From an uncultured bacterium (lineage in GTDB: Bacteria; Hydrothermota; Tepidihabitantia; SM23-42; CAYGYG01), in NCBI GenBank assembly GCA_964354155.1, contig CAYGYG010000007.1, forward strand, positions 49,903 to 113,902: DNA of 64,000 nt, in the 5' to 3' direction. Below, piece by piece: positions 3,892 through 22,816 of this stretch. The first letter of the stretch is position 1, and every line of letters begins with the position of its first letter. Below the pieces are notes generated by a model. The model saw nothing but the letters and a program-made list of their open reading frames with translations. It was not told where the DNA came from and did not search any database. Both the position numbers and the translations under genes were made by a program.

Positions 3892-3900
3892 GAATGAGCG

Positions 3901-6882: not shown

Positions 6883-8181
6883 TTACGGACCGGTGGGTTT
6901 GAACAAGCGGTAGGTGCTTCGACCGGACGCTTTGGCCCGGTACATGGCAATGTCGGCGTTCTTGACCAGCTCTTCAGTGTTCTTGCCGTCCGACGGATAG
7001 AGGCTGATGCCGATGCTGGCCGTGACCCGTAGTGTCCGGCGTTCGAATCTGAAAGGGCGGCCAAAAGCGACTAGGATCTTGCGGGCGACCTTTGTCGCAT
7101 CGGCATGACTCTGCAACTCGGGTATGACAAATGCAAATTCATCACCGCCCAGCCTGGCTACGGTGTCCATCTTTCGAACGCGTGCCCTCAGACGTTTGGC
7201 TACGGATTTGAGCAAACGGTCGCCGATGGTGTGCCCAAGCTCATCGTTGACGTTCTTGAAGTAGTCGATGTCGAGCAGCATTACGGCAACAATCTTGTGG
7301 TAGCGTTCGGCCGCCGAAATCGCGTGACCCAGTCGATCCTGGAACAGCACACGATTGAGCAATCCAGTTAGCATATCGTGATGCGCCAGGAAATTGAGGC
7401 GAGCTTCAGTCTTCTTGCGGTCGGTGATGTCCCTTTGGATTGCGAGAAACCCCACGATGGCGCCGTCGCGGTCATAGATCGGATTAGCTGAGCCGTCGAT
7501 ATTGAGGAACGCACCGGATTTTGTTTTGTTGATGAACTCGCCGCGCACGACTTGACCGCCAAGGATGTTTTTCCAGAAAGCGCGGTAGTGGTGAGGTTGC
7601 ATCTTCCCACTTTTCAGGATGCGGGGCGTCTTCTTATTCACGACTTCCCGCGCCTTGAACCCGTAGAGCTTTGTAAACGCGGGATTGATGTAAGTGACGA
7701 CGCCTTTCCGGTCGGTCATGAAGATTGCCTCGCCCGATGCCTCAACTGCCTGTTGCAGCTTGATGAGTTCTTGTTCGAGTTTCTTACGGGAGACGATGTT
7801 TCGCGCCACATGGATCACGTAGGCGACCCGGCCCTTCGCGTCTTTGATCGGCGAGGCCGAAACTTCGAAGGGAACTCGCTGACGGTTGCGCAGGATGTGC
7901 ACGTGTTCGAACAATGAAGACCGCGCCGTCTTCACGGTCTGCACCAGGGGGCAGGGGTGGCCGGGCGGCCGGCACGACGTCTTGCGGTTATGTGTAATCT
8001 CGTAGCAATGTCGACCGATGACTTGATGTCTCTTCAGGCCAACCTGCCTGAGAAACGCGCGGTTTGCGTCGACAATGCGATAGTTGCTGACATCAATAAT
8101 GCTTATTCCCTCCTGGATGCTATTAAGGATCTTTGAACAGAAGTTGGGCGGATACAGAGGTTTGTCTAGGTTTCGTGCCAT
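6883..8181 (-). CDS. PAS-PAS-GGDEF diguanylate cyclase
   Basis: It has two PAS-like segments (GISIIDVSNYRIVDANRAFL...; GEAIFMTDRKGVVTYINPAFTKLYGF...). Its GGDEF domain shows RLGGDEFAFVI, so the active site is intact. Confidence 0.85.
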   Translation of the reverse strand: MARNLDKPLYPPNFCSKILNSIQEGISIIDVSNYRIVDANRAFLRQVGLKRHQVIGRHCYEITHNRKTSCRPPGHPCPLVQTVKTARSSLFEHVHILRNRQRVPFEVSASPIKDAKGRVAYVIHVARNIVSRKKLEQELIKLQQAVEASGEAIFMTDRKGVVTYINPAFTKLYGFKAREVVNKKTPRILKSGKMQPHHYRAFWKNILGGQVVRGEFINKTKSGAFLNIDGSANPIYDRDGAIVGFLAIQRDITDRKKTEARLNFLAHHDMLTGLLNRVLFQDRLGHAISAAERYHKIVAVMLLDIDYFKNVNDELGHTIGDRLLKSVAKRLRARVRKMDTVARLGGDEFAFVIPELQSHADATKVARKILVAFGRPFRFERRTLRVTASIGISLYPSDGKNTEELVKNADIAMYRAKASGRSTYRLFKPTGP

Positions 8182-8341: not shown

Positions 8342-9370
8342 ATGAAACGATTGAATGCTTTGGTCATATGTCTCGTGCTCGGACTGGGCCTGCTGAGTGG
8401 AGCTTTTGCTGCCCAGCGAGTGGTTTTGTGTGAAATGCTTTATGGAGAAGGTTGAGGAAGTTGCCCTGCAGCTAGTAGTCTACTAGCAACCCTGGCGATA
8501 AGATATCCGGGTCGGATTGCCCAGACTGAACTGCATTGCGCGTCCGGCTATCCACTTTACCGAGCCGAAGCCTATAATCGGGCGATGTGGTACGGTGCTC
8601 AATACTACAGCGATACCTACATGGACGGCACGTATGCCGGCCATTCGGGCAATTCCGCCAACTGGGAAAACTTGCTGGTCGCTCGTATGAATAGGCCTTC
8701 GCCGATGACGGCGACGATGTGGGGTACGTATAATCCGACCACTCGAAATGGCAGGATCTACTCCAAGTTCCGGAATGATTCGACCGGAACCATAGCGGGG
8801 AATATCTACTTCCTTATCATTCGGGACAGTGTTCGTTATTCATCCCCCAACGGTGACCTTTGGCATAACTACGTCGCGCACGACTACCTGCCAAGTGAAG
8901 TAGGTACTCCGGTAACGGTCCTTCCGGGCGATACCGTAACCCAGTACCGTGATTTTTCGATACCCGATTCATTCAATGTCAGCAAGTGCATGATCTATGC
9001 CTGGGTACAAAGAACCACGGGGACCAGGGAGACCTATCAATCTGGCATCAAGAATGTGACGAGTCTTCTTGAGGTTGCCGAGCAGTCGAGTCGGGTTCCG
9101 GATTTGGCCAAGATCGAGCTTGTCCCGAATCCCTGCAACGGAGAAACCAGCTTCCTGCTTGAGCTACCGGCGGGCGCGCCTTATGCCATTAAGCTCTTCG
9201 ATATGTCAGGAAGACAAATAAGGGTAATGGCAGGTCAAGCAAAAGGCGGCAAGGCAAGAATAACCTGGAATTGCAGAGATGACCGGGGCCGGTCGGTTAA
9301 CCCGGGAGTCTATTTCTATGCCCTGAACAGCAGTAGAATCAACGCTTCGGGTAAGATCATTGTAAGATAG
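8342..9370 (+). CDS. Secreted hypothetical protein with T9SS C-terminal domain; single in-frame TGA at 8453-8455 (candidate selenocysteine, U-G-S-C context)
   Basis: An AAGGAGG ribosome-binding site precedes an ATG at 8342, and a signal peptide (MKRLNALVICLVLGLGLLSGAFAAQ) follows. The TGA and the downstream ORF 8585-9370 are in the same frame. The read-through peptide (GEG-U-GSCPAASSLLATL...) is continuous, and the downstream part has no signal peptide or start of its own. A T9SS C-terminal domain is present (ELVPNPCNGETSFLLELP...GVYFYAL). Confidence 0.5.
8471..8487 (+). promoter_or_regulatory. SECIS-like hairpin downstream of in-frame TGA (GCTAGTA-GTC-TACTAGC)
   Basis: It has a perfect 7-bp stem and a G-containing 3-nt loop. 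The loop lies 23-25 nt 3' of the TGA at 8453. Confidence 0.3.
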
Positions 9371-9381
9371 GCTACAAAGAA

Positions 9382-9414
9382 GCCCAAGGGTTGGAGGAAT
9401 ACCAACCCTTGGGC
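9382..9414 (+). terminator. Stem-loop after T9SS cargo gene (GCCCAAGGGTTGG-loop-CCAACCCTTGGGC)
   Basis: It has a 13-bp perfect stem and a 7-nt loop. There is no strong T-run, so it may be rho-dependent or merely structural. Confidence 0.4.
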
Positions 9415-9583
9415 TGACAACACCATTGGCGTAAAAGAAACACCGGGACTGCCCAGTTCGATTGTTGACACTGCATATAATCCGTATATGCTATCACCGT
9501 GAATGATTCGACGCATTGAATGCTGTAATCCTTCAACGCGCTGTGGTCTGAATTCGCCGTAATTCGCGACATTCGAACCGGAG

Positions 9584-10237
9584 ATGTCTCTCCACGGAGG
9601 CAATTTGGGCTTCGATGATATTAAAAATGCCATTGTTGGATTCGACGATGATCGGATTAGAACCCTCGTGAATTTGGCGCTGAAAGAAGGGATTGCGCCG
9701 GCGGAGCTTTTGGAGAAGGGGTTAATCCCGGGCATGAAGGAAGTCGGAGAGCGGTTTGCTCGAAAAGAGTACTTCGTGCCGGAAGTATTGATGGCGGCTG
9801 AAGCGTTCTATGCGGGGTTCGACCTGGTGAAGCCCTTGATTAAGAGCACTGACCGGAAAGCAAGAGGCAAGATTGTGATCGGGGTTGTTGAGGGTGATAT
9901 CCACGATATCGGAAAGAATATCGTCAAGGTAATGCTAGAGGCTTCTGGGTACGAAGTGGTGGACCTGGGCAAGGACGTTCCGATCGCGAGGTTCATCGAG
10001 ACGGCCGCAAAGGAAAAACCGCAGGTTCTGGCCCTGTCCAGCCTTATGACAACGACAATGGTCAGAATGGGCGATGTGATTCAGGGGCTGCAAAAGAAGG
10101 GGTTACGTAAGGGCATCAAGATCATTGTCGGGGGCGCGCCAGTCAACCAGGATTTTGCCGACAAGATCGGGGCTGATGCTTATGGTGAGGATGCGGCCGC
10201 AGCAATGAAGGTGGTGGACAGCCTTCTGCAACCGTAG
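9584..10237 (+). CDS. Corrinoid (cobalamin-binding) protein of a methyltransferase system (MtmC/MtbC/MtaC-like)
   Basis: It has an N-terminal B12-binding cap followed by a Rossmann B12-binding domain. The DxHxxG motif is present (VEGDIHDIGKN), as is an SxL motif (ALSSLMTT). Confidence 0.8.
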   Translation: MSLHGGNLGFDDIKNAIVGFDDDRIRTLVNLALKEGIAPAELLEKGLIPGMKEVGERFARKEYFVPEVLMAAEAFYAGFDLVKPLIKSTDRKARGKIVIGVVEGDIHDIGKNIVKVMLEASGYEVVDLGKDVPIARFIETAAKEKPQVLALSSLMTTTMVRMGDVIQGLQKKGLRKGIKIIVGGAPVNQDFADKIGADAYGEDAAAAMKVVDSLLQP

Positions 10238-10302
10238 CGAGGGTTGTCGTTGGGGATAAACCCCAACGCTACAGTCTCGTAGCGCCGGGGCTCGTCCCCG
10301 GC
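10234..10302. repeat. REP-like intergenic palindromic element (GTAGCG...[GTTGGGGATAAACCCCAAC]GCTACAG...GTAGCG[CCGGGGCTCGTCCCCGG])
   Basis: Two hairpin modules are bracketed by GTAGCG/CGCTAC arms. The element overlaps the TAG stop codon of the corrinoid-protein gene. A second copy lies at 24119-24177. Confidence 0.6.
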
Positions 10303-10322
10303 AATTATGCATATGTTGATTT

Positions 10323-11246
10323 ATGAATAAAATTGAAGACGTTCTTAATAACAAAAAGGGATTCGCGGTCTTCCCGATTGTTTGTGCCGATCACTGTGCT
10401 CATTTGTCTAAAATGGATTTTGTTGAGATGGCGCACAGTGGCGAGAAGCTGGCGGAAGTCATAGAATATGGCTATCGCCTCTATCAGTACGACATGGTTT
10501 TGGTCTTTGTCGATGCCTATGTTGAGGCGCAGGCGATGGGCTGTGAGATAGAGTTTGTTCCGTATCCGAGACTTAAATCAGATACACACGGATTGAAGCG
10601 GATGCAAACGGATACGAACCGAACCGGTGAGATTATAAAGGCGGCAAAGATCCTTAAGAAGAAAGTTGATGTTCCAGTATTTGTTTCGATCAAGGGGCCC
10701 TTCACGCTTGCTGCCTTCCTAGCGGGCCTCGATGAATTTTTGAAGATGCTTATTCGAGATCCGGAGAAGGCCCAGGCGATCATCAAACAGGCGCTCGATT
10801 TCCAACTCGCGTACCTGGAGCGACTGCTTGAAGTCGATGCCGACATCTTCATCGGCGACCCGATCGCTTCGGCCAGCGTTATTTCTCCGAGGAGTTTTGA
10901 ACGGTTCGCGTTACCGGCGCTGAAAACCTTAATGGGGAAAATCAAAGACCAAGGACATGTGGGCGGCATTCACATCTGCGGCGAGACCGGACCGATCGCG
11001 ACGGCGCTTGATGAATGCCGCGTCGACATTCTCTCGATCGAAGACATAACGGTGCCGACCAAAACCTTGAAGATGGGCGGCGTGTCAACATCAACCATAC
11101 TTGGCGGCGACCGGTCGGCGATCGAGAGTGAAGTCGAGGCCGCGTTACGCGAGCCATATCTTATTGTCTCAACTTCATGCGATGTCCCGGTTGAGACGCC
11201 GGTGGAAAACATCAAGGCAATGATTGAATATGCCAGAAACTCGTAG
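10323..11246 (+). CDS. Uroporphyrinogen-decarboxylase (URO-D) family corrinoid methyltransferase (MtaA/CmuA-like)
   Basis: It has a URO-D-like TIM-barrel sequence with conserved blocks (DAYVEAQAMGCEIEF; IGDPIASASVISP; HICGETG). Confidence 0.75.
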   Translation: MNKIEDVLNNKKGFAVFPIVCADHCAHLSKMDFVEMAHSGEKLAEVIEYGYRLYQYDMVLVFVDAYVEAQAMGCEIEFVPYPRLKSDTHGLKRMQTDTNRTGEIIKAAKILKKKVDVPVFVSIKGPFTLAAFLAGLDEFLKMLIRDPEKAQAIIKQALDFQLAYLERLLEVDADIFIGDPIASASVISPRSFERFALPALKTLMGKIKDQGHVGGIHICGETGPIATALDECRVDILSIEDITVPTKTLKMGGVSTSTILGGDRSAIESEVEAALREPYLIVSTSCDVPVETPVENIKAMIEYARNS

Positions 11247-11318
11247 CCGTTCTATTCGTCGAGCCAGGTGCTGGCCTGGACATCCCGGTATTTTCATGAG
11301 TCGTAATGTGATGATTCT

Positions 11319-12686
11319 ATGATCTTGCTCGACCTGCTAATCAAGCGACGCAGCCTGATCCCGGCCGGATGCAGCGGCCGGGGTCGGTGCGGGCAGTGCC
11401 GGATAAAAATGGTTAAACCCCGGAAACCGGATGAGATTGAGCGCCAGCTCATCCCGTCCGCGGTTCTTGACCAGGGCTATCGTCTTGCCTGCAGAAGAGA
11501 AGCCCACGAGAAATTCGTGCCCCGAGTGCGGACCACGCCCCGGATCCGAACCAGCAAGAGCAAAGAAATCGGACTGGCCCTTGATCTGGGCACGACAACG
11601 ATCAAAGGGCTGGCGGTTGATCTTAGGAGCGGCCGGACCATTGGGAAGGAAGCGGTCTTCAATCCTCAGAACGTCTTGGGGGCTGATGTCATCTCCCGAA
11701 TCGGCGCCGCGCTTGAAGGGAAATACACCTATCTCAGAAAACTGCTGATGTCGGGAGTCGAGGAAGTCATCCGGCGGTTGGGGATCAAGCAGCCGGTCTT
11801 TACTGCGGTCGCGGCCAACCCGGTGATGCGGTCCTTCTATCTCAATGATGCAGTCCAGGGACTCGCCCAGTACCCCTTTGAGAGTGTCCGTCGCGAAGCC
11901 GTCTGGCTTAAGAACCCCACCCGGTACGTCTTCCCGGTTATCGGCGGATTCGTCGGCGGGGACACAATTGCGGGGTTGCTTGCCGACCGTACACTGGAGA
12001 CGCGCTGTACCGTTCTCTACGCCGATCTGGGCACGAACGGTGAAGTTGGGCTGGCCTGGGGCGGCAAGATCGTTCTGGTTTCAACCGCCGCCGGTCCGGC
12101 ATTCGAGGGGTCGGGCATCAAGGGCGGCAGTCTGGCGCTACCGGGGGCAATCGACCGCGTTGGCTATCAGGGTGGTTTCAGGATTCGGACGATCGGGAAC
12201 AGAAAACCGGTTGGCTTCTGCGCCTCGGGACTGCTTGACTTGCTGGCTGTTCTGCGGCGCCGTGGGTGGCTGACTCCGGACGGTCGGCTGATGAAGCCGG
12301 TGGAGATCGGCGGCATCGCGATTGAGCAACAAGCGATTCGGCAGCTCCAACTGGCCATCGGCGCCATCCACGTCGGCATCATGGTGCTGCTTCTCAAATA
12401 CTCGATAGCCCCGGCCGAAGTCAGCCGGGTTATCCTGACCGGTGAATTCGGCGCCCATCTCAATCCCCGATCCCTGGTCGAGGTGGGCCTGATACCAACA
12501 GGCATCAAGAAAATCTCTATGGCCAGCGACCTACCGCTGCAAGGCGCCCTGAAATTCTTGCTTGACGCCAACGGCCTGGACGCGGTGAAATTGGTTCATC
12601 GGAACGCCCATCATCTGGAACTGGCACAGGAACCGGCCTTCGAACGGCTTTTTATTAAATCGCTCAGGTTGGCGCCATGGGATTGA
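11319..12686 (+). CDS. RACo-type reductive activator of corrinoid enzymes (N-terminal [2Fe-2S] ferredoxin + ASKHA ATPase, DUF4445)
   Basis: A plant-type ferredoxin cysteine pattern (CSGRGRCGQC...AC) is followed by ASKHA phosphate-binding motifs (LALDLGTTTIKG; ADLGTNGEV). Confidence 0.75.
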   Translation: MILLDLLIKRRSLIPAGCSGRGRCGQCRIKMVKPRKPDEIERQLIPSAVLDQGYRLACRREAHEKFVPRVRTTPRIRTSKSKEIGLALDLGTTTIKGLAVDLRSGRTIGKEAVFNPQNVLGADVISRIGAALEGKYTYLRKLLMSGVEEVIRRLGIKQPVFTAVAANPVMRSFYLNDAVQGLAQYPFESVRREAVWLKNPTRYVFPVIGGFVGGDTIAGLLADRTLETRCTVLYADLGTNGEVGLAWGGKIVLVSTAAGPAFEGSGIKGGSLALPGAIDRVGYQGGFRIRTIGNRKPVGFCASGLLDLLAVLRRRGWLTPDGRLMKPVEIGGIAIEQQAIRQLQLAIGAIHVGIMVLLLKYSIAPAEVSRVILTGEFGAHLNPRSLVEVGLIPTGIKKISMASDLPLQGALKFLLDANGLDAVKLVHRNAHHLELAQEPAFERLFIKSLRLAPWD

Positions 12687-13921
12687 TCCCGTTAGAAATC
12701 GGCGACTCTATGTTGGGTCACTCATCATCTGATGCTGATGCGAGAGACCGGGGCAGATTTCTAACGGGGCTGACCCCATTAGAGACTAAGCATACAGAGC
12801 GTTGTGCGCCTGATGGTAAGGGCTGTCCTGAAAAGGGCGGCAAGTCTCTAACGAGACTGACCCCATTAGAGACTAACGAGTCGGAAGGTTGTCCCCGTGA
12901 GGCGGGTGCCTGTCCTGCTAACCCCAGCAAGTCTCTAACGGGGCTTATCGGCTACACGTGTTCGTACACGCCGGTCGAAATACTGTCGGCAACCGGCTTC
13001 AGGCCCTATCGGTTGCTGCACGGAGATAGCGGGCGGTCAAGCGCGGGCGAACTGTATGTGCGGATTGACTCCTGTCCGTTGGTTAGATCGAACATCCGGT
13101 ATCTTGTCGAAAACAAGGATGACTTTGTGGCAATTGTCGGTTCCAGCGGATGCGATATGGCGCGGCGGATGCTCGAAGTCGTCGCGTACGAGACGAAGAT
13201 GCCGACCTTTCTGTTCAATAATCCGAGGACCGATAACCGGCGGATGTTCAACGACGAGATTGACTGGCTGGTTCAGGAACTGGAACGTTTTTCAGGCCGG
13301 GACTTGTCGGACCAGGCGTTGGCGCGAGAAATCGACCGCTGGGAAAGCGCCCGCTCGGTTTTTCGAGGACTTGACGCAAAGCGCCGTAGTCGCCCTTCGA
13401 TGATTTCAACAACGCGGCTGCACCAGGCGGCGATGAGCTATCATCAGGGTGCACCGAATGCGGCGCGGGAAGTCCCGGAAGAGGCTTCGGATCGACCCAG
13501 GATCTACCTGATCGGCAGCCCGATATCCTATGAATCGACCCCGATATTGTCGCGGATCGAGGAACAACTGCGCATTGTCGGTGATTTCAACTGCGGCATC
13601 TCGCGGTTTGCGGACCTGAAGGTTGAAGAGAAGAGCCGGCGCGGTATCAAGCAGGCCTATTATGGCCAGACGGCGTGCATCGTCAAACGGCCGAACACTG
13701 CGTTCTACGACCGAATCTACCGAGAGATCAAGGATCGCGAGTGCGTCGGTGTTGTTGCCTGGACATTAGACTTCTGCGATGCGTTTGAATTCGAGCTCAA
13801 TCGAATGGAACGCAAGATCGGGTTACCGATGTTGCGACTGAAGAGCGATTTCTCGGTCCAGAACCTAGGCCAGTTGAAAACCAGGATCGGGGCCTTTACC
13901 GAGATGCTGGATCACGAATAG
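12677..13921 (+). CDS. 2-hydroxyacyl-CoA dehydratase / benzoyl-CoA reductase BcrB-like subunit (HgdB-like); start uncertain
   Basis: The conserved core starts near 12940 (LIGYTCSYTPVEILSATGF...SCPLVRS...SSGCD) with the cysteine ligands of the HGD-D family. The first ~85 codons of the ORF are a tandem hairpin repeat and may not be coding. Confidence 0.65.
   Translation: MGLIPLEIGDSMLGHSSSDADARDRGRFLTGLTPLETKHTERCAPDGKGCPEKGGKSLTRLTPLETNESEGCPREAGACPANPSKSLTGLIGYTCSYTPVEILSATGFRPYRLLHGDSGRSSAGELYVRIDSCPLVRSNIRYLVENKDDFVAIVGSSGCDMARRMLEVVAYETKMPTFLFNNPRTDNRRMFNDEIDWLVQELERFSGRDLSDQALAREIDRWESARSVFRGLDAKRRSRPSMISTTRLHQAAMSYHQGAPNAAREVPEEASDRPRIYLIGSPISYESTPILSRIEEQLRIVGDFNCGISRFADLKVEEKSRRGIKQAYYGQTACIVKRPNTAFYDRIYREIKDRECVGVVAWTLDFCDAFEFELNRMERKIGLPMLRLKSDFSVQNLGQLKTRIGAFTEMLDHE
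12688..12945. repeat. Tandem structured repeat (about 87-bp period, about 2.2 copies), each unit a nested hairpin (GTCTCTAA-CGRGRCTGACCCCA-TTAGAGAC), preceded by an inverted arm CCCGTTAGAAATC
   Basis: Direct repeat units lie at 12756-12787, 12844-12877 and 12931-12945. The arm at 12688-12700 is the reverse complement of the GATTTCTAACGGG at the start of the first unit. Confidence 0.6.
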
Positions 13922-13951
13922 CGCGAATGGCAGCGAATAGCAGGATGATCC

Positions 13952-15283
13952 ATGTTTGACGATCCCAGACCCAGAAAGATTACGCTCCATGAATGGAGCG
14001 AGCAGTTTCGGCAGCTCGACGAGAGCATCATCAGGCAATTCACCTATTACGGCAATCCGCAATGGGGCAACTACCTTTCACCGCCGGCAACATTCATGGT
14101 TTATGGGGCGAAGGAGCTGAAGCGACTGCGACTGGATAACTCGCTGGCTGCGCTTCGCCTCTGGGGCTTCGTTTTCAACGAATCCGAGAGATTGTTTCGG
14201 GCTCGCCAGGTCGGCAAGAAGGTTATCGCGACGATGGGCGATTTGGGCATCGTGCCGGCCATCGTCATGGCCTTCCCGGATTGTGTGCCTTTCTATCCGG
14301 AGTGTATCTGGTGGACGCCCTTTTTTAGGGAATCCAAAGACCTGCTCCATACCGCGACCATGCTGGGCACCCCTGAAGCCAGCTGTTTTGTCCGTGCCGC
14401 CCTTGCGGCATTCTACAAGAAGGCCTATTTCCCCAATCCGGACTTGCTGATCGGCTCAACCGGCGCTTCGTGCGATGACTATTCCGGCGTGATGCAGCTG
14501 GTCGAAGATCTGGGCCATGAGGTGCTGTGGGTCGAAATACCGATGAGGAAAGGCGCTCGAGCCGAAGAATATCTGCTAGCTGAGTACGAGCGAATCTTAG
14601 GGAGAATGAAACAGTTGACCGGGGTTGCGTCGGATCGTGGATTGATCGAGAGCATCCAGAAAGCCAACCGATTGAGAGGGACGGTCAAGAAGTTGAAACA
14701 GCTCTGCTACAACGCCCCGATTGCGCCTCTGCCTGCGCTGGAATTGATGACGATTGAGTTTGGGAATATGTACGGCTACGGCGATTTCGATGAATGGACA
14801 AGAATCGTGGAAGCGGTGTACGAGACGGTCGAACAGCGGGTCGCCCTGAAACGCGGCGTGCTTAATGCGGACGCGGTGCCGATTGCCTGGGTGAGCCCAT
14901 CGCCGGATCCGTACGTGCTCAATCTGGTTGAAGACCTCGGCGGCCGGGTTGTCGCGACCGAATACGTGATCAACCAGGCTCTCGTCGAGATCGACGAGAG
15001 TATCGAGCCGGTGCGGGCGCTGGCCCGGGCTTTTCTGCAGGCTTCGCTCATTGGCTCGACCGAGGAGAGGGTTGGCAGAATCCGAAAGCAGATTGAGGCC
15101 GGCACGGTGCGCGGGGTTCTGATCACCAACTCAATGGGTGCGTCCCACTGTGCGATGGAGACGCGGCTGATCGAGAAGATGCTGGGTAAGGTTCCGGTGC
15201 TTTCGATCGACATCCCGGAGCCGTTCGGCATCTCCGGGCAGGTTCGAACCCGGCTTGAGGCCTTTATGGAAATGATTGGATAA
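13952..15283 (+). CDS. 2-hydroxyacyl-CoA dehydratase / BcrC-like subunit (HgdA-like)
   Basis: It shows HGD-D family conservation (FPDCVPFYPECIWW; GASCDDYSG) and directly follows its partner subunit. Confidence 0.65.
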   Translation: MFDDPRPRKITLHEWSEQFRQLDESIIRQFTYYGNPQWGNYLSPPATFMVYGAKELKRLRLDNSLAALRLWGFVFNESERLFRARQVGKKVIATMGDLGIVPAIVMAFPDCVPFYPECIWWTPFFRESKDLLHTATMLGTPEASCFVRAALAAFYKKAYFPNPDLLIGSTGASCDDYSGVMQLVEDLGHEVLWVEIPMRKGARAEEYLLAEYERILGRMKQLTGVASDRGLIESIQKANRLRGTVKKLKQLCYNAPIAPLPALELMTIEFGNMYGYGDFDEWTRIVEAVYETVEQRVALKRGVLNADAVPIAWVSPSPDPYVLNLVEDLGGRVVATEYVINQALVEIDESIEPVRALARAFLQASLIGSTEERVGRIRKQIEAGTVRGVLITNSMGASHCAMETRLIEKMLGKVPVLSIDIPEPFGISGQVRTRLEAFMEMIG

Positions 15284-15474
15284 GCGAATGACTCAAATGA
15301 CAGCGAATGACTCGAACAGCGAACCTACGACACGTTTTGTCATTGCGAGTCCCTGTGGGACGTGGCAATCTCATTCTCATGCAGAATCGTGTACTGTAAC
15401 GGTTGGATTCATCCGATGTGATGCAGCATCATTCGCCAAGGTCGCTGGAATCCGTCATATTCGCGAGTGATGGC

Positions 15475-16500
15475 ATGAAGGATATTTTAACTCCCCGAGA
15501 ACGATTCGGTCTGCTCATCATTGACGAGAAGCCGGATCGATGCAATGTCATCCCGCTGATCACGTCACATGCGGCCATTGTCGCCGGAGTATCGGTTAAG
15601 AAGTACTACACGCAGGGCGAAGTAATGGCCCGGGCGCAGCTTGCGGCCATCGAAGAGTACGGCCATGATGCGATTTCGATCTTCTCGGAGGTCGGCATCC
15701 TGGCCGAGGCCATGGGCTCGAAGTTCGAATACCCGGAAGATGACCTGCCGATCTTCAGGGAGCCGGCCTTAGGCAAAGCCGGGCCTGAAACGCTGTCAAC
15801 ACCCAATCCGACCCAAACCGGGCGCTTGCCCGTCTATCTTGAAGCGATCCGCTGTGCTTACGATGCAGTCGGGGATACTATCCCGGTGCTTGCTTACGTG
15901 CCGGCGCCGTTCACGACCGGAATGATGCTCTGTCAGCCGGAGCAGTTCCTGATTGACCTGGCGCGGAATCCGGCACGGGTTGATGCCATTATGCAAAAAG
16001 CATTGGATGCTGCGATCGAGTTCTGCTACGAAATAATCAATGCTGGAGGCCTGCCGGTCCTGGTCGATCCACTGGCCTCAGGGAGTGTCATCAGCCCGGC
16101 AACCTATCGGAAATTCGCTCTGCCGTACGAAGCCGAACTGATAAAATTTCTTCACCGGTACGATCTCGACATTATTCTCCATATCTGCGGTGATACGAGG
16201 CCGATCGTTGATATATTGCCCGAGACCGGGGCCGACCTGATGAGCTTCGATCATCTGGGAATCGACGTGGCCCTGGAGCGGTTGTCAGGCCGGATGCGTT
16301 TGATAGGTAATTTCGACACGTCCCGTCTGGTCCTGTCTTCAGCTGATGTAATCGGCCGGGAAGTGGGCGCAATGGTCGCGGGCGCGAAGGAGGCTGGGAG
16401 AGGTTACGTCGCATCCACTGGCTGCGAGGTGCCTTTATGCGCGCCGCGCGACAATGTTTTGGCCTTTGTCAAAGCCGCCAAAGAAGCCGGAGCCTATTGA
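15475..16500 (+). CDS. URO-D family corrinoid methyltransferase (second MtaA/CmuA-like paralog)
   Basis: It contains URO-D-like blocks (LTPRERF; VDPLASGSVISP; HICGDT). The ATG at 15475 (MKDILTPRERF) fits the family N-terminus better than the upstream ATG at 15403. Confidence 0.7.
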   Translation: MKDILTPRERFGLLIIDEKPDRCNVIPLITSHAAIVAGVSVKKYYTQGEVMARAQLAAIEEYGHDAISIFSEVGILAEAMGSKFEYPEDDLPIFREPALGKAGPETLSTPNPTQTGRLPVYLEAIRCAYDAVGDTIPVLAYVPAPFTTGMMLCQPEQFLIDLARNPARVDAIMQKALDAAIEFCYEIINAGGLPVLVDPLASGSVISPATYRKFALPYEAELIKFLHRYDLDIILHICGDTRPIVDILPETGADLMSFDHLGIDVALERLSGRMRLIGNFDTSRLVLSSADVIGREVGAMVAGAKEAGRGYVASTGCEVPLCAPRDNVLAFVKAAKEAGAY

Positions 16501-16559: not shown

Positions 16560-16588
16560 TTGACTTGTCAGTCCCGATTGGTATACTT
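16560..16588 (+). promoter_or_regulatory. Sigma70-like promoter (TTGACT-17-TATACT) with extended box TTGACTTGTCA
   Basis: The -35 element is at 16560-16565 and the -10 element at 16583-16588. The ATG at 16600 is only 11 nt downstream, so the leader is very short or absent. Confidence 0.5.
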
Positions 16589-16599
16589 CCTGCCGTACT

Positions 16600-19500
16600 A
16601 TGACCAGACCCATCGAAGAGCGTCGTCTTATTACGATTCTGTTTGCCGACCTTTCCGGGTTCACCACGCTCTCAAGAGTACTTGATCCGGAGGAGGTCCG
16701 CGAGGTCGTCAATGTCTGTTTTGAGTCGCTGAACGAGGCCGTCATTCAAGAAGGGGGCGTGATCCACAAGTACGAAGGCGATCTGGTGATTGCCCTATTT
16801 GGACTCCCTGCAGTCCATGAAGATGATCCGGAACGGGCGATCCGTGCCGGGCTTCGGATGATGGGGCTTATTCCCAGCATCAACGAGACCATCGGCAAGA
16901 AGCTGAGACGCAAGACGACACTCGGACTCCATGCCGGTATCAACAGCGGCACGGTTTTTGTCGGGGAAGTCGGCTCGTTGGAAAAGAGAGAATATACGAT
17001 AATGGGCGATGCCGTTAACCTGACCTCGCGACTGAAGGACGTGGCTGGTCCGGGCGAACTGATTGTGTCCGAAACGGTGTTCCGGGCATCGCGCTACATG
17101 TTCGACTATGAGCCTCGCCCGCCCGTTACCCTGAAAGGTTTCGCCGAACCGGTGAAGGTATTCAGGCCCACGGGGGTAAAACCGCGGCCTGAGCCCAAGC
17201 GCGGCATCAAGGGACTCCAGTCGCCGTTGGTGGGACGCAAGGCGGAACTGACCGCGGTCCGCGGGGCGATCGACCGGCTCAGCACGGGTATCGGCGGCGC
17301 CGTATTCGTGCTGGGTGACGCCGGTTTGGGTAAGACTCGCCTGCTGAGTGAATTGAAACAGCAGCTTGCCCCAGGCCGAGTCGAATGCCTTGAAGGGAGG
17401 TGTCAATCGTCCAGTGAGAACGTACCCTACCTTGCCATCCTGCAGATTCTCCAGGCGGTCTTTTCGATTGGCGAACACGATTCGCGGGGAGTGGTTAAGG
17501 AGTGCCTGCTGAGCAAGACCCGCGAGTTTTTCCCGGGGGAATGGGAGACGGTCGCGCCCTATCTCGGACACCTGTTTTCTGTCCGTTTTGAGGACGGGCT
17601 GGACGAAAAGATAAGGCACTTGAGTCCCGAGAACCTCCACACTCAGGTGCGGGCCAGCGTGAGGAAGCTGCTCTTTGCTCAGGCCAAGGAACACCCGGTG
17701 ATGCTTGTAATCGAGGACTATCACTGGATCGACCGGGCCTCGCTGGAGCTTGTTGACTTTGTCTTTTCCGCCGAGGAAGGTGCTTTTATGCCGGAGCGGA
17801 CTCCGCTCTTGCTGCTTGCGCTGTCGCGCGTCGAAAAGGAGAAAGCGCCCTACGAACTGAAGGAGGAACTCAAGAAACGGTTGGGAGAACATTGCCTGGA
17901 GATCGTGCTCAAGCCACTGGCCGAGGCGGAAACAAGTGAGTTCATCAGGAATTTGTTGGACGTGTCGGGCATTCCCGAATCCTTGCGCCGCAGAATCATT
18001 GAGCGGGCCGAAGGGAACCCATTCTATATCGAAGAGATCATTCGTTCTTTGATCGATGCCGGAGTGCTTGTCCTGCAAGACGGCGTGTGGAGAGTGCGCC
18101 CAGGTGCCGCGCCCGAGAGCTTGACCGAAATACCCAGCACCGTGCAGGCGGTCATTGCGGCACGGCTCGATAAGCTGGACCCGGAGGTGCGCAGCGTCCT
18201 TCAGGCCGCCTCGGTTATTGGGCGCAGTTTTGGTGCGGCGGTCTTGGAGCGTCTCGGTGGGGAGGATAGCCTGATGCTGAGTGTTCACCTGGCGACACTC
18301 GAGGATTTTGAATACATCGCCGCGACGAGCCAGGGACGCGAGGTCGAGTACGTGTTCCGTCATCCTCTGCTCCATGAAGTTGCCTATAACGGCCTTTTGA
18401 AGCGACGGCGCCGCGAGCTGCACCTCCGGATTGGCGGAATAGTCGAAGGGCTCTATGCTGATCGCCTCGATGAATTTGCCGAGTTTTTGGCGAACCAGTA
18501 CTACCGGAGTGATAATTCGGCCAAGGCCCTGTTCTGGCTGCAGCGGGCCGGGCAGAAGGCACGCGAGCGGTATACGCTGGCCGAAGCAAGTACCTTCTAC
18601 GGCCGGATCACGGAATTGCTTGAAGACAGTGATTTTTCGACCGCGGAACACCGGATGCTGGCCCAGGAAGCCCATGAAGCTTTGGGCGATGCGTACCGAC
18701 TGCGCGGCGATTATGAGCGAGCACTGGAATCGTACCGGCGACTCGAAGCCCTGGCGGTTGACAAGAATGACCCAGTCCTTGCCCACAGCCGCCTGAAACG
18801 GGCAATGATCGACGTTCACCGCGGCAGTCTTGACCAGGCCCTGGCGAACCTGGACCAGGCCGATGCGCTCTTGAGCGGCAGCAGTGAGGAGGTCATGCTT
18901 GAACGGGCCGAAGTCGGCACCCGGCGTGGTCAGGTCATGCGACTGAAGGGGAGGACCGAGGATGCACGGCGTGCGGTGCTGCAGTCGATCGAGGCGGCGG
19001 AAACGGTCGTGGGGCGGAAACCCGGGACCGATGTTGCCCGGCGGGCGAAAAAGATTATTGCCAGCTCCCATCACGATCTCGGGCTGACCTTCGCGGTCCT
19101 GGGCCGGTACGAGGAAGCCGTTGCCCTGTATCGGCAGTGCATTACCGATTTTCAGGAATTGGGTGATAAGTTCGCCGTTGCCAGTGCCATGCACAATCTG
19201 GGCCGGATATATCAGGATCTTGGCGAGAGCCACAAGGCGCTCGACATGTTCGTCAAGAGCCTGGACACGTTTGAGCGGATCGGTTTTGGCCAGGGCGTGG
19301 CTACCGCGCACAACAGCATCGGCTATACCTACCACGAGCTGGGCGACCTCAAGAAGGCGGATGAAATGTACCGGAAGTACTGGGCGATTTCGCAGGAGAT
19401 CGGCTACAAGCGGGGCATTGGCGGTGCCCAGTGTAACCTTGGGGCAATTCACCGGGAGCGCGGCGAGTATGAGCCGGCGCTGGCATATTTCCAGAACTAT

Positions 19501-20049
19501 CTAAGAGGGGCTGAGGAAATGGACGACCGTGGCGAAATCGGTGACGCCCATGCCGCGATCGCGCTGCTCTTCCTCGACCAGGGCAAGAATGAGCAGGGTT
19601 TTGCTCACATCGAGAAGGCGGAAGTCGTCTTCCGTTCGATGAATGAAAAACGGAACCTGCTCGATGTCTTGCGCACCAAAGCCGAACTGCTCATGGGTTC
19701 AGATGCCGGCCGGTCTCTGGCTTGTGCCCATGAGGCGCTGGCGCTCTCCGGGGAGATCGGTTCTGATTTCTGCCTGGGCAATAGCCATTTGACGATGGGC
19801 CGGGTTTCTCTTGCGGTCGGCGATTTGAGCAATGCGGCGAGAAACCTCAAAGTTGCAGTCGATCTGCTGGTCAAGGTCGGACAGAAGAAACCAATGGCCG
19901 ATGCCTACCTTGAATACGCGCGATTCCTCAAGAGCCAGACGGTGCGCAACGGCTTGCCGCGCGAGGAAGCCGAGGTCTATTTCCGCAAGGCACGCCAGCT
20001 CTATGAGGAGATGGGGCTGCCCAACATAGTCGCAAAATGTGTCTGGTAG
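16600..20049 (+). CDS. Class III adenylate/guanylate cyclase fused to a STAND/AAA ATPase and C-terminal TPR repeats
   Basis: A CHD cyclase domain is N-terminal (LFADLSGFT...KYEGDLVIALFG...GINSGTVFVGEVG). A Walker A motif follows (GDAGLGKTRL), and the C-terminal ~450 aa carry multiple TPR-like repeats. Confidence 0.85.
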   Translation: MTRPIEERRLITILFADLSGFTTLSRVLDPEEVREVVNVCFESLNEAVIQEGGVIHKYEGDLVIALFGLPAVHEDDPERAIRAGLRMMGLIPSINETIGKKLRRKTTLGLHAGINSGTVFVGEVGSLEKREYTIMGDAVNLTSRLKDVAGPGELIVSETVFRASRYMFDYEPRPPVTLKGFAEPVKVFRPTGVKPRPEPKRGIKGLQSPLVGRKAELTAVRGAIDRLSTGIGGAVFVLGDAGLGKTRLLSELKQQLAPGRVECLEGRCQSSSENVPYLAILQILQAVFSIGEHDSRGVVKECLLSKTREFFPGEWETVAPYLGHLFSVRFEDGLDEKIRHLSPENLHTQVRASVRKLLFAQAKEHPVMLVIEDYHWIDRASLELVDFVFSAEEGAFMPERTPLLLLALSRVEKEKAPYELKEELKKRLGEHCLEIVLKPLAEAETSEFIRNLLDVSGIPESLRRRIIERAEGNPFYIEEIIRSLIDAGVLVLQDGVWRVRPGAAPESLTEIPSTVQAVIAARLDKLDPEVRSVLQAASVIGRSFGAAVLERLGGEDSLMLSVHLATLEDFEYIAATSQGREVEYVFRHPLLHEVAYNGLLKRRRRELHLRIGGIVEGLYADRLDEFAEFLANQYYRSDNSAKALFWLQRAGQKARERYTLAEASTFYGRITELLEDSDFSTAEHRMLAQEAHEALGDAYRLRGDYERALESYRRLEALAVDKNDPVLAHSRLKRAMIDVHRGSLDQALANLDQADALLSGSSEEVMLERAEVGTRRGQVMRLKGRTEDARRAVLQSIEAAETVVGRKPGTDVARRAKKIIASSHHDLGLTFAVLGRYEEAVALYRQCITDFQELGDKFAVASAMHNLGRIYQDLGESHKALDMFVKSLDTFERIGFGQGVATAHNSIGYTYHELGDLKKADEMYRKYWAISQEIGYKRGIGGAQCNLGAIHRERGEYEPALAYFQNYLRGAEEMDDRGEIGDAHAAIALLFLDQGKNEQGFAHIEKAEVVFRSMNEKRNLLDVLRTKAELLMGSDAGRSLACAHEALALSGEIGSDFCLGNSHLTMGRVSLAVGDLSNAARNLKVAVDLLVKVGQKKPMADAYLEYARFLKSQTVRNGLPREEAEVYFRKARQLYEEMGLPNIVAKCVW

Positions 20050-22786: not shown

Positions 22787-22816
22787 GGAGGATTCCATCT
22801 ATCAAGGAGGTTCTTT

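What the first reader, a model, noticed from the sequence alone, without database searches (positions are those of the whole stretch)
9584..16500. Corrinoid methyltransferase module with a HgdAB/BcrBC-like iron-sulfur pair inserted next to a RACo-type ASKHA activase
The gene order is corrinoid protein, URO-D-family methyltransferase, RACo ([2Fe-2S] + ASKHA ATPase), HgdB-like, HgdA-like, second URO-D-family methyltransferase. The two URO-D methyltransferases plus corrinoid protein plus RACo resemble the four-component O-demethylase or methyl-amine-type systems of anaerobes. 2-hydroxyacyl-CoA dehydratase or benzoyl-CoA-reductase-like pairs normally need their own ASKHA electron-injecting activator (HgdC/BcrAD), which is absent here. 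The only ASKHA ATPase nearby is the RACo. The cluster may therefore couple methyl transfer to a radical dehydration or reduction step, or the RACo-like protein may double as activator for the HgdAB-like pair.
Basis: inference. Interest (0 to 1): 0.6.

Follow-up and report, generated by a model that had tools for sequence, protein, structure and literature searches.

The report
Selenium-linked corrinoid methyltransferase operon with iron-sulfur reductase
This is a six-gene operon of an uncultured WOR-3 bacterium that joins a vitamin-B12-type methyl-transfer system, of the kind used to strip methyl groups from selenium or sulfur compounds, to an ATP-driven iron-sulfur reductase; the combination is conserved and already noted in the literature, and the "missing" activator gene is present in almost all relatives.

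Summary
Window 9584-16500 (+) encodes, in order: a corrinoid protein, an MtaA-like methyltransferase, a short RACo/RACE activase, two HGD-D paralogs, and a second MtaA-like methyltransferase. No BcrAD/HgdC gene lies anywhere in the 64 kb.

- Across 72 distinct related loci (WOR-3/Stahlbacteria plus deeper lineages) the module is conserved.
- In 56 of 62 loci with sequence beyond the last methyltransferase, a canonical HgdC-type ATPase gene follows it, usually overlapping it by 16 nt.
- RACo is optional; it is absent from 11 loci.
- The window belongs to a small subclade in which the adjacent ATPase gene is gone, yet the HGD-D pair stays under purifying selection.

The methyltransferases have the His-Cys-Cys zinc site of S/Se methyltransferases. 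Their nearest named relatives are Methanococcales proteins that sit next to corrinoid proteins. Relatives of the cluster lie among selD, yedE, selA and selB.

The HGD-D pair looks like BzdNO: one subunit has six double-cubane cysteines and the other has three [4Fe-4S] cysteines.

This fits the published "type 1 mlp gene cluster" plus double-cubane protein association with methyl-selenide metabolism. I rate it a new variant of a known kind. The reductase's substrate is unknown.

The parts
9465..9492 (+). Promoter-like site (TTGACA-16-TATGCT) about 90 nt upstream of the first gene; probable operon start
   Evidence: Consensus scan. A match to a consensus only, not shown to be functional. A strong hairpin at 9381-9415 separates it from the upstream gene.
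9584..10237 (+). Corrinoid (cobalamin-binding) methyl-carrier protein, 217 aa
   Evidence: PF02607 + PF02310. TIGR02370, 244 bits, above the 215 cutoff. DxHxxG motif with invariant His107. 51% identical to the corrinoid protein next to the Methanococcus maripaludis URO-D gene.
10323..11246 (+). MtaA-like (URO-D superfamily) zinc methyltransferase 'MT1', 307 aa; optional in relatives
   Evidence: PF01208, 3e-54. Best solved relative is MtaA 4AY7, with H217-x-C219 and C286 aligned to the HxC...C zinc ligands. Missing from the WOR-3 loci L007, L008, L013 and L054 and from the deeper lineage L049.
11319..12686 (+). Short RACo/RACE-type reductive activase of corrinoid proteins ([2Fe-2S] + ASKHA ATPase), 455 aa
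   Evidence: PF14574 164 bits, PF17651 89 bits, Fer2. Cys18/24/27/58 form a plant-type [2Fe-2S] motif. Aligns to C. hydrogenoformans RACo 3ZYY but lacks about residues 86-202, the linker and middle domains. Its stop overlaps the next gene's start by 10 nt, as in 29 of 36 RACo-containing loci.
12677..13921 (+). HGD-D paralog 'beta' (HgdB/BzdN/DCCP-like), predicted [8Fe-9S] double-cubane subunit, 414 aa including an 87-aa N-terminal insertion
   Evidence: PF06050, 3.5e-55. Best NCBIfam hit is double_cubane NF040772 at 149 bits, below the 350 cutoff. Six invariant Cys (95, 133, 159, 306, 334, 367) align with the Cys of DCCP 6ENO/7YYL at the positions of its published Cys motif. The seventh motif Cys is an invariant His115.
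13952..15283 (+). HGD-D paralog 'alpha' (HgdA/BzdO/HadB-like), predicted catalytic [4Fe-4S] subunit, 443 aa
   Evidence: PF06050, 2.4e-38. Only C145, C174 and C400 are conserved in all lineages, including the distant L049; it lacks the C-terminal-half double-cubane Cys. AlphaFold model pLDDT 82. Foldseek finds only DCCP, BzdO/MbdO and HadB/C chains, E 1e-17 to 1e-11. It is among the best-conserved proteins of the module: 95% identity to the sister locus and 44% to the distant lineage.
15403..16500 (+). MtaA-like zinc methyltransferase 'MT2' (invariant member of the module); ORF from 15403, probable start at Met25 = 15475
   Evidence: PF01208, 1.6e-68. H260-x-C262 and C341 align with the MtaA 4AY7 zinc ligands. 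Among 1.84 billion representatives the nearest named relatives are Methanococcales URO-D family proteins, one of them next to a corrinoid protein. Homologs align from residue 25.
16560..16587 (+). Promoter-like site of the next, unrelated gene (adenylate cyclase-AAA-TPR, 16600-20049). It marks the end of the operon at the place where relatives carry the HgdC-type ATPase gene.
   Evidence: TTGACT-16-TATACT. The junction sequence is conserved in sister locus L041. In L005 the genes for the HgdC-type ATPase, PdxJ, SecD, SecF, PgpA and CinA lie between MT2 and the orthologous cyclase gene.

Best explanation
The region is one operon for a corrinoid-dependent methyl-transfer system of the Sdm / 'type 1 mlp gene cluster' kind. 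This is the kind implicated in removing methyl groups from methyl-selenium, or in some organisms methyl-sulfur, compounds. It is genetically fused to an ATP-dependent low-potential iron-sulfur reductase of the benzoyl-CoA-reductase / 2-hydroxyacyl-CoA-dehydratase / double-cubane (BCR-I/HAD/DCCP) superfamily.

Proposed working (inferred from homology unless marked otherwise):
1. The zinc (His-Cys-Cys) methyltransferases move a methyl group from a methyl-selenide or methyl-sulfide donor onto Co(I) of the corrinoid protein, and from there to a thiol-type acceptor.
2. The RACo-type ATPase re-reduces accidentally oxidised Co(II).
3. The two HGD-D paralogs form a BzdNO-like heterodimer. The beta subunit stores electrons on an [8Fe-9S] double cubane. 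The alpha subunit carries a three-Cys [4Fe-4S] active site.
4. This heterodimer is normally energised by its own HgdC-type ATPase, encoded directly after the second methyltransferase.
5. It most likely performs a difficult reduction on the same substrate stream. Examples are reductive C-Se/C-S cleavage or reduction of an oxidised organoselenium compound, analogous to the MarHDK reductases that accompany the sulfur-type clusters. Selenide would then be delivered to SelD.

In the window's subclade the adjacent HgdC-type gene has been lost or moved. The activator is then most likely encoded elsewhere in the genome.

Shown here: gene content, cofactor-ligand motifs, conserved synteny, translational overlaps, purifying selection, and selenium-gene neighbourhood in relatives.
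Inferred only: the substrate, the direction of methyl flow, and the role of the reductase.
For: Domain content.

Conserved order, SAM-MT-CP-(MT1)-(RACo)-HgdB-like-HgdA-like-MT2-BcrAD:
- 34 GTDB species loci and 50 metagenome loci, 72 distinct in all.
- These include lineages only 43-49% identical in the alpha subunit (L086-L095), and L049, where selD, selB and selA flank the core.
- An HgdC-type gene follows MT2 in 56 of 62 loci.
- The MT2/ATPase overlap is 16 nt in 40 loci. The RACo/HgdB-like overlap is 10 nt in 29 of 36 loci.

Selenium genes (selD, yedE, tusA, selA, selB) lie within the fetched flanks of 30 of 72 distinct loci.

Zinc-site His-x-Cys...Cys in both methyltransferases, aligned to MtaA.

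Nearest named relatives of MT2 are Methanococcales proteins, one of them adjacent to a corrinoid protein.

Literature:
- Sdm genes and a second corrinoid-protein/methyltransferase pair are induced by selenium starvation in M. maripaludis (PMC11097638).
- Type 1 MGCs are linked to methyl-selenide, often with DCCP/DCCPR and selABCD; ClMlp2 methylates selenide (PMC10418091).
- 955 of 970 strong DCCPs occur in SelD-containing genomes (bioRxiv 10.1101/2022.07.06.499078).

Cluster ligands:
- The six beta Cys align with the Cys of DCCP at the positions of its published motif, and their spacing is like BzdN Cys36/73/100/263/293/327.
- The alpha subunit has three conserved Cys, the same number as the three [4Fe-4S] ligands of BzdO (Cys95/128/380).

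Fold.

Purifying selection on all six genes, window versus sister locus: dN/dS 0.07-0.20.
Against: - No selenium gene (selD, selA, yedE) and no SAM methyltransferase was found in this 64-kb window. The selenium link here rests on relatives only.
- Assignment of MT1 and MT2 to the Mlp1/2/3 subclusters that define a type 1 MGC could not be made, because no reference sequences were available.
- Conserved synteny within one phylum is partly shared ancestry.
- No experiment exists on any member of this heterodimeric HGD-D pair, so its substrate is a guess.
- The cluster functions in this lineage without an adjacent HgdC-type gene. The model does not explain this beyond 'encoded elsewhere'.
- Both HGD-D proteins score far below the NF040772, HadC and BzdN/O equivalog cut-offs.
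Confidence: 0.65

Rival explanations
1. In the window's subclade the RACo-type ASKHA ATPase is the only ATP-driven electron injector and serves both the corrinoid protein and the HGD-D pair.
For: - Six distinct loci lack the HgdC-type gene after MT2: the window, L041, L047, L048, L078 and L085. They come from at least two separate lineages.
- Every one that can be assessed has RACo. No locus lacks both RACo and the HgdC-type gene (0 of 11 RACo-less loci).
- The HGD-D pair remains under purifying selection since the loss (dN/dS 0.14-0.20).
- The RACo stop overlaps the HgdB-like start by 10 nt.
- No BcrAD homolog lies in the 64 kb.
Against: - 56 of 62 orthologous clusters keep a dedicated HgdC-type ATPase even when RACo is present (39 loci), so RACo does not normally replace it.
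- The RACo/BcrAD pattern is not significant. The chance that all four fully assessable losses fall in RACo-containing loci is about 0.4.
- Only 64 kb of a roughly 2-Mb genome is visible. Related genomes carry a second DCCP-reductase-type ATPase elsewhere.
- From general knowledge: RACE ATPases donate from a [2Fe-2S] ferredoxin domain to cobalt. All known HGD-D partners are reduced by a dimer-bridging [4Fe-4S] archerase.
Confidence: 0.08
2. The HGD-D pair with its HgdC-type ATPase acts on the corrinoid system itself. It would be either an alternative reductive activator of Co(II) or a way to discharge the methyl group from methyl-Co(III) reductively.
For: - The invariant core in all lineages is corrinoid protein + one methyltransferase + HGD-D pair + HgdC-type ATPase.
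- RACo and MT1 are dispensable: RACo is absent from 11 loci, including five complete WOR-3 chromosomes.
- With a single methyltransferase no obvious methyl acceptor enzyme is encoded.
- Genes of the two subsystems are interleaved and translationally coupled.
Against: - 39 loci keep both RACo and the HgdC-type ATPase, which argues against simple redundancy.
- RACo may be encoded elsewhere in the RACo-less genomes; this was not testable.
- MtsA-type methyltransferases can catalyse both half-reactions (general knowledge).
- No member of the BCR-I/HAD/DCCP superfamily is known to act on a protein-bound corrinoid.
Confidence: 0.12
3. The operon is an aromatic O-demethylase coupled to a benzoyl-CoA-reductase- or dehydratase-type step for degrading methoxylated aromatic or hydroxyacyl-CoA compounds.
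For: - Two URO-D methyltransferases + corrinoid protein + RACE resemble Odm/Mtv/Mto systems.
- The HGD-D pair has the BzdNO-like cluster pattern.
Against: - Both methyltransferases have the His-Cys-Cys zinc site. O-demethylases replace Cys by carboxylates (PMC10418091).
- No tetrahydrofolate methyltransferase, CoA ligase or transferase, or dienoyl-CoA-processing genes appear in any of the inspected neighbourhoods.
- Scores against the BzdN/BcrC/HadC equivalog models are 19-49 bits, against cut-offs of 420-700.
- The neighbours are selenium genes.
Confidence: 0.05
4. The two modules merely happen to sit next to each other and have no functional relation.
For: None beyond the absence of experimental data.
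Against: - The same interleaved order occurs in 72 distinct loci, including lineages at 43-49% identity with different flanks.
- Reading frames overlap.
- All six genes are under purifying selection.
Confidence: 0.02

Closest known systems
Type 1 mlp gene clusters (MGC; Kountz & Balskus, bioRxiv 2023, PMC10418091) and the SdmABC dimethylselenide system of Methanococcus (Niess & Klein 2004; PMC11097638)
   Same: - Corrinoid protein + MtaA-like URO-D methyltransferases with a His-Cys-Cys zinc site + Ram/RACE activase.
- No tetrahydrofolate methyltransferase.
- Found in strict anaerobes.
- Frequent neighbours are selABD, yedE and double-cubane protein with its reductase.
- The nearest named relatives of MT2 are Methanococcales proteins next to corrinoid proteins.
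   Different: - Two methyltransferases (only one in several relatives) rather than the usual three.
- Assignment to the Mlp2/Mlp3 subclusters was not tested.
- The phylum is WOR-3. The preprint found 73% of the MGC-encoding genera in Firmicutes; its full phylum list (Fig. 4) was not available to me.
- The reductase is a two-gene heterodimer embedded between RACE and the last methyltransferase, not a single accessory DCCP gene.
- The window's copy has no selenium genes nearby.
Double-cubane cluster protein DCCP / DCCP-R of Carboxydothermus hydrogenoformans (PDB 6ENO, 7YYL; NCBIfam NF040772)
   Same: - It is the best sequence and fold match of both HGD-D proteins.
- The beta subunit keeps all six [8Fe-9S] ligand cysteines.
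- Relatives encode a DCCP-R/HgdC-like ATPase.
- There is a strong genomic link to selenium use.
   Different: - DCCP is a homodimer of one gene. Here there are two diverged paralogs, and the alpha one has lost three of the six ligands.
- The seventh motif Cys is His.
- Scores of 149 and 79 bits are far below the 350-bit cutoff.
- No reductase gene lies in the window.
Class I benzoyl-CoA reductase core BzdNO (PDB 8S02; PMC11971306) and 2-hydroxyisocaproyl-CoA dehydratase HadBC (3O3M)
   Same: - Heterodimer of two HGD-D paralogs.
- One subunit has six Cys for an electron-storing [8Fe-9S], with spacing nearly identical to BzdN.
- The other, longer subunit has three Cys for a catalytic [4Fe-4S].
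- It is energised by an ASKHA archerase.
   Different: - 13-18% identity in the Foldseek alignments of the alpha model to BzdNO, MbdON and HadBC chains.
- Far below the equivalog cut-offs.
- No CoA-ester metabolism genes nearby.
- Relatives have a single HgdC-type gene (homodimer type) rather than the BzdPQ/BcrAD heterodimer.
- The context is corrinoid and selenium, not aromatic degradation.
RACo of C. hydrogenoformans (PDB 3ZYY) / RACE-type activating enzymes
   Same: N-terminal plant-type [2Fe-2S] motif and the ASKHA ATPase domains (PF17651, PF14574).
   Different: About 175 residues shorter. It lacks the linker and middle domains (about residues 86-202 of RACo). It scores 179 bits against the 800-bit AcsV cutoff.

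Membership tests
Type 1 mlp gene cluster / Sdm-type methyl-selenide corrinoid methyltransferase system | At least two MtaA-like (SCMT-related) URO-D superfamily methyltransferases | tested here: met
   PF01208 at 3e-54 and 1.6e-68. The best solved relative of both is MtaA 4AY7. The top NCBIfam hits are the MtaA/CmuA and methylcobalamin:CoM methyltransferase subfamilies, though below their cut-offs.
Type 1 mlp gene cluster / Sdm-type methyl-selenide corrinoid methyltransferase system | Membership of the methyltransferases in the Mlp2 and Mlp3 sequence subclusters (the formal definition of 'type 1') | not testable with these tools
   Reference ClMlp1-3 sequences were not obtainable. There is indirect support only: the nearest named relatives of MT2 are Methanococcales, Clostridia and other anaerobe URO-D proteins.
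Type 1 mlp gene cluster / Sdm-type methyl-selenide corrinoid methyltransferase system | His-Cys-Cys zinc coordination sphere (S/Se type, not O type) | tested here: met
   MT1 H217/C219/C286 and MT2 H260/C262/C341 are conserved in 31-33 homologs and align with HxC...C of MtaA.
Type 1 mlp gene cluster / Sdm-type methyl-selenide corrinoid methyltransferase system | [quoted passage not shown] | tested here: met
   TIGR02370 above its cutoff; RACo domains present. No pterin-binding methyltransferase in the operon or among the ORFs scanned in the window.
Type 1 mlp gene cluster / Sdm-type methyl-selenide corrinoid methyltransferase system | Association with selenium-utilisation genes | tested here: inconclusive
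   Met in relatives: selD, yedE, tusA, selA or selB lie in the flanks of 30 of 72 loci. Not met in this window: tblastn for SelD, SelA and YedE was negative. The rest of the genome is unseen.
Double-cubane cluster protein (DCCP, NF040772) | Six cysteines that ligate the [8Fe-9S] cluster | tested here: met
   Applies to the beta subunit only. C95, C133, C159, C306, C334 and C367 are invariant and align with the Cys of DCCP at the positions of its published motif. The alpha subunit lacks three of them.
Double-cubane cluster protein (DCCP, NF040772) | Complete seven-Cys motif and a score above the family cutoff (350 bits) | tested here: not met
   The seventh Cys is replaced by the invariant His115. 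Scores are 149 and 79 bits. A true DCCP (460 bits) exists as a separate gene in relatives.
Double-cubane cluster protein (DCCP, NF040772) | Adjacent HgdC-type reductase (DCCP-R) | tested here: not met
   Absent from the 64-kb window. Present in 56 of 62 related loci.
Class I benzoyl-CoA reductase (BzdNO/BcrBC) or 2-hydroxyacyl-CoA dehydratase (HgdAB/HadBC) | Heterodimer of two HGD-D paralogs, with an [8Fe-9S] or [4Fe-4S] accessory subunit and a three-Cys catalytic subunit | tested here: met
   Two adjacent paralogs. The six-Cys spacing is like BzdN. The alpha subunit has three conserved Cys (C145/C174/C400), the same number as the [4Fe-4S] ligands of BzdO. Fold matches to BzdO and HadB. Heterodimer formation itself is inferred.
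Class I benzoyl-CoA reductase (BzdNO/BcrBC) or 2-hydroxyacyl-CoA dehydratase (HgdAB/HadBC) | Equivalog-level sequence similarity and a CoA-ester pathway context | tested here: not met
   BzdN, BcrC and HadC models score 19-49 bits against cut-offs of 420-700. No CoA ligase, CoA transferase or dienoyl-CoA genes appear in any inspected neighbourhood.
RACo / RACE-type reductive activase | [2Fe-2S] ferredoxin domain plus RACo-type ASKHA ATPase domain | tested here: met
   The Cys18/24/27/58 motif; PF17651 and PF14574 above their cut-offs; alignment to 3ZYY. The linker and middle domains of RACo are absent.
Aromatic O-demethylase (Odm/Mtv/Mto) | Zinc site with carboxylate ligands; tetrahydrofolate (or H4MPT) methyltransferase partner | tested here: not met
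   His-Cys-Cys in both enzymes. No pterin-binding methyltransferase in the operon.

The most novel reading that the evidence does not exclude
The heterodimeric HGD-D pair is the missing physiological example of a double-cubane-type reductase. It would be an ATP-driven enzyme that reductively cleaves carbon-selenium (or methyl-cobalt) bonds in concert with a corrinoid methyltransferase system. In the subclade represented by this window, it would receive its energised electrons from a RACE-type [2Fe-2S] ATPase instead of an HgdC-type archerase.
Probability: 0.07. Interest if true: 0.85.

Novelty: new variant of a known kind. Interest (0 to 1): 0.4.

Why it matters
The physiological substrates of double-cubane-type reductases are unknown, although these enzymes track selenium use very closely across genomes. 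Here a BzdNO-like derivative is translationally interleaved with a methyl-selenide-type corrinoid methyltransferase system in at least 72 distinct loci. This offers a compact, conserved operon in which that question can be tested biochemically with a short list of candidate substrates.

The natural variants allow direct tests of which ATPase feeds which acceptor. These variants are RACE present or absent, HgdC-type ATPase present or absent, and one or two methyltransferases.

For this window specifically, the result is mainly a correction. The "missing activator" is a lineage-specific gene loss or relocation, not a property of the system.

Tried and rejected
- tblastn of three HgdC-type proteins, SelD, SelA, YedE, the SAM methyltransferase, PdxJ, SecD/F, PgpA and CinA against the window: only the HGD-D genes matched, via the DCCP query.
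- I could not search the rest of the source genome. The exact-match look-up returned only the 27.7-kb Logan contig, not the 134-kb NCBI contig. The window's species is not among the GTDB representatives (best match 58%).
- Tandem Repeats Finder on the HgdB-like N-terminal insertion: nothing at the DNA level.
- Rfam at gathering threshold and ARAGORN on the whole window: no hits, so no cobalamin riboswitch and no tRNA-Sec.
- Foldseek of the alpha-subunit model does not discriminate between DCCP, BzdO and HadB.
- I tested whether the N-terminal extension of the HgdB-like protein goes with the presence of RACo. It does not: the median extension is 3 aa in both groups.
- I tested whether loss of the HgdC-type gene is statistically tied to RACo. 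It is not significant.
- Three cited papers (PMC9879109, PMC5866592, PMC415765) are not held. I used the preprint or review versions instead.
- I did not use the third homolog search for HgdC-type proteins.

Full report
**1. What is in the window**

Six co-directional ORFs fill 9584-16500 on the + strand.

- 9584-10237: a corrinoid protein. It has B12-binding_2 + B12-binding, scores 244 bits on TIGR02370 (above cutoff), and carries the DxHxxG motif.
- 10323-11246: a URO-D/MtaA-like methyltransferase, here called MT1.
- 11319-12686: a 455-aa RACo-type protein. It has the plant-type [2Fe-2S] motif Cys18/24/27/58 and the RACo ASKHA domains. It lacks about residues 86-202 of the C. hydrogenoformans enzyme.
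- 12677-13921 and 13952-15283: two HGD-D family proteins.
- 15403-16500: a second MtaA-like methyltransferase, MT2. It probably starts at Met25 = 15475, because homologs align from there.

Promoter-like sites lie before the first gene (9465-9492) and after the last (16560-16587, serving the next gene). These are consensus matches only.

The next gene (16600-20049) is an adenylate cyclase-AAA-TPR protein. tblastn with three HgdC/BcrAD-type proteins finds nothing in the 64 kb.

**2. Source and relatives**

The same contig occurs in metagenome runs ERR4334735 and ERR4334734. All close homologs are from candidate division WOR-3 / Candidatus Stahlbacteria.

I collected 34 loci from GTDB species representatives, 50 from JGI metagenomes, and a dozen by exact-protein look-up. 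I annotated them with BLAST against a reference set checked by Pfam and NCBIfam. After collapsing near-identical copies there are 72 distinct loci.

The consensus order is: SAM-dependent methyltransferase, corrinoid protein, (MT1), (RACo), HgdB-like, HgdA-like, MT2, HgdC-type ATPase.

**3. The "missing" activator**

- In 56 of the 62 distinct loci that extend at least 800 nt beyond MT2, a 240-aa BcrAD_BadFG gene follows MT2.
- That gene scores 238 bits on TIGR00241 and has both conserved cluster cysteines.
- In 40 loci it overlaps MT2 by 16 nt.
- This holds in lineages whose alpha subunit is only 43-49% identical to the window's (L086-L095). It also holds in L049, where selD/selB and selA flank a minimal core without MT1 and RACo.
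- RACo is absent from 11 loci, including five complete WOR-3 chromosomes. The HgdC-type gene is present in all of those.

The system therefore normally has its own canonical activator.

The window is one of six exceptions: window, L041, L047, L048, L078 and L085.
- The first four are each other's closest relatives (alpha subunit at least 70% identical). L078 and L085 are a separate lineage.
- In the sister locus L041 the MT2-cyclase junction is conserved base for base. In L005 six genes, including the ATPase gene, lie between MT2 and the orthologous cyclase gene. The simplest reading is a deletion or rearrangement in the ancestor of the subclade.

**4. Is the HGD-D pair still functional here?**

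Between the window and L041 (dS 0.2-0.8), dN/dS is 0.20 for the beta gene and 0.14 for the alpha gene. This is within the range of the other four genes, 0.07-0.18. All cluster-ligand cysteines are intact.

The pair is thus maintained by selection without an adjacent activator gene. Either the ATPase is encoded elsewhere or RACo substitutes. Related genomes carry a second DCCP-reductase-type gene next to a canonical DCCP, which makes the first option plausible.

All BcrAD-less loci that can be assessed have RACo, and no locus lacks both. With these numbers that pattern is not significant, with a probability of about 0.4 by chance. I could not inspect the rest of the genome.

**5. What the HGD-D pair is**

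A profile of the beta subunit matches the double-cubane protein DCCP best (6ENO/7YYL, E 4e-35), then HadC and BzdN.
- Its six invariant cysteines (95, 133, 159, 306, 334, 367) align with the Cys of DCCP at the positions of its published motif.
- The seventh Cys of the published motif is an invariant His.
- The spacing (37, 25, 146, 27, 32) is close to BzdN Cys36/73/100/263/293/327.

The alpha subunit is longer.
- It lacks the C-terminal-half ligands.
- Across all lineages it keeps only C145, C174 and C400. Three is also the number of Cys that ligate the catalytic [4Fe-4S] of BzdO (Cys95/128/380).
- Its AlphaFold model (pLDDT 82) hits only DCCP, BzdO/MbdO and HadB/C.
- The alpha subunit is conserved across the distant lineage (44% identical) while beta has drifted (28%, with two of the six Cys lost). 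This is as expected if alpha is the catalytic subunit.

The pair works like a BzdNO-type heterodimer, but it is not a member of the BCR, HAD or DCCP equivalog families. Its scores are 19-149 bits against cut-offs of 350-700, and no CoA-ester genes accompany it.

**6. What the methyltransferase part is**

Both methyltransferases align best with MtaA (4AY7) and keep the His-x-Cys...Cys zinc ligands.

According to Kountz & Balskus (PMC10418091), this His-Cys-Cys sphere marks S- or Se-methyltransferases, whereas O-demethylases have carboxylates.

In a search of 1.84 billion cluster representatives, MT2's nearest named relatives are URO-D family proteins of:
- Methanococcus maripaludis, M. aeolicus, Methanothermococcus and Methanocaldococcus;
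- then Clostridia, Anaerolineae, Bipolaricaulota and Promethearchaeota.

The M. maripaludis protein sits directly after a corrinoid protein. That arrangement matches the second corrinoid-protein/methyltransferase pair reported to be induced by selenium starvation, alongside the SdmABC-like operon (PMC11097638).

In the WOR-3 relatives the cluster is embedded among selD, yedE, tusA, selA and selB, and often next to a true DCCP with its reductase and an FtrB-like gene. Thirty of the 72 distinct loci show at least one selenium gene in the fetched flanks.

**7. Comparison with the literature**

- The combination of corrinoid protein, MtaA-like methyltransferases and Ram/RACE, with accessory DCCP/DCCPR and selABCD, was described as "type 1 mlp gene clusters" and tied to methyl-selenide metabolism. 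A purified Mlp2 methylates selenide.
- Haft & Gwadz found that 955 of 970 strong DCCPs lie in SelD-containing genomes.
- Lin et al. saw HGD-family proteins and their activase linked to yedE/yedF/selD.

The general association is therefore known. Three things differ here:
- The reductase is a diverged two-gene, BzdNO-like heterodimer.
- It is interleaved with the methyltransferase genes. RACo is coupled to the beta subunit, and MT2 is coupled to the HgdC-type ATPase.
- The core of corrinoid protein + one methyltransferase + heterodimer + ATPase is nearly invariant across 72 distinct loci.

Formal membership in "type 1" (Mlp2 and Mlp3 subclusters) could not be tested.

**8. Mechanism and verdict**

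Best-supported model, at about 0.65 for the overall identity: this is a methyl-selenium (or methyl-sulfur) corrinoid demethylation system whose substrate stream also needs an ATP-driven, very low-potential reduction by the BzdNO-like enzyme. The analogy is to the MarHDK reductases that accompany the sulfur-type clusters.

The chemical step catalysed by the heterodimer is not known. Reductive C-Se/C-S cleavage, reduction of oxidised organoselenium, corrinoid reactivation and methyl-cobalt discharge all remain possible.

It is not excluded for this subclade.

The finding is a real, conserved system. It is a new variant of a known kind and of moderate interest.

Noticed in passing
window 12677-12940: The HgdB-like ORF keeps the usual start that overlaps the RACo stop. 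It then carries an in-frame 87-aa insertion made of three degenerate ~29-aa units (GLIPLE..., LTGLTPLE..., LTRLTPLE...) before the conserved LTGLIGY core. The sister locus L041 has two units, a few WOR-3 homologs have one, and most have none. No DNA-level tandem repeat was detected.
   Followed up: partly
L003 5156-8317; L045 1957-4780; L009, L010, L015, L027, L061, L069, L074: Many WOR-3 relatives carry three genes just upstream of the cluster: an FtrB-like gene, a canonical double-cubane protein (NF040772, 460 bits) and a second HgdC-type ATPase. These are followed by a SAM-dependent methyltransferase with DVU_1556/ArsM-like and weak CpaM similarity. None of these genes is in the window.
   Followed up: partly
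L005 2810-3715; L045 419-1375 and 4919-5965: The called SelD gene in L005 begins at position 46 of the SelD model. That is what one would expect if an N-terminal selenocysteine codon truncated the gene call. L045 has two SelD paralogs.
   Followed up: no
L049 / L095 7390-10004: In a distant lineage (alpha subunit 44% identical) the beta subunit is only 28% identical and retains four of the six double-cubane cysteines. The alpha subunit keeps C145/C174/C400 but not C111/C118. The cluster type of the beta subunit may therefore differ between lineages.
   Followed up: partly
window 16600-20049 and 6883-8181 (-): A 1149-aa adenylate/guanylate cyclase-AAA-TPR protein and a PAS-PAS-GGDEF diguanylate cyclase flank the operon. 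Both are conserved next to it in sister locus L041. The cyclase gene has a conserved TTGACT-16-TATACT promoter-like site.
   Followed up: partly
window 20263-25649: An anaerobe oxidative-stress set: an MsrA-MsrB fusion (- strand), DUF3795, MscL, rubrerythrin, desulfoferrodoxin and an AhpC-rubrerythrin fusion. Similar genes follow the cluster in L047 and L048.
   Followed up: no
window 28374-29681: A class-V aminotransferase (cysteine desulfurase / selenocysteine lyase family). In L048 the corresponding gene is followed by DsrE-like and TusA genes, a sulfur or selenium relay set.
   Followed up: no
window 17-4923, 8585-9370, 32254-36534, 41894-47407: Many predicted secreted proteins with FlgD_ig or Por_Secre_tail C-terminal domains, PorV-like proteins, and BNR/Sortilin repeats. 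This fits a type IX secretion system, as in the FCB group to which WOR-3 belongs.
   Followed up: no
L041 9576-9884: The sister locus has an ArsR/SmtB-family metalloregulator inserted between the alpha subunit and MT2. It is absent from the window.
   Followed up: no
window 1-64000: No tRNA gene and no Rfam family at gathering threshold in the whole 64 kb. In particular there is no cobalamin riboswitch ahead of the corrinoid operon.
   Followed up: yes
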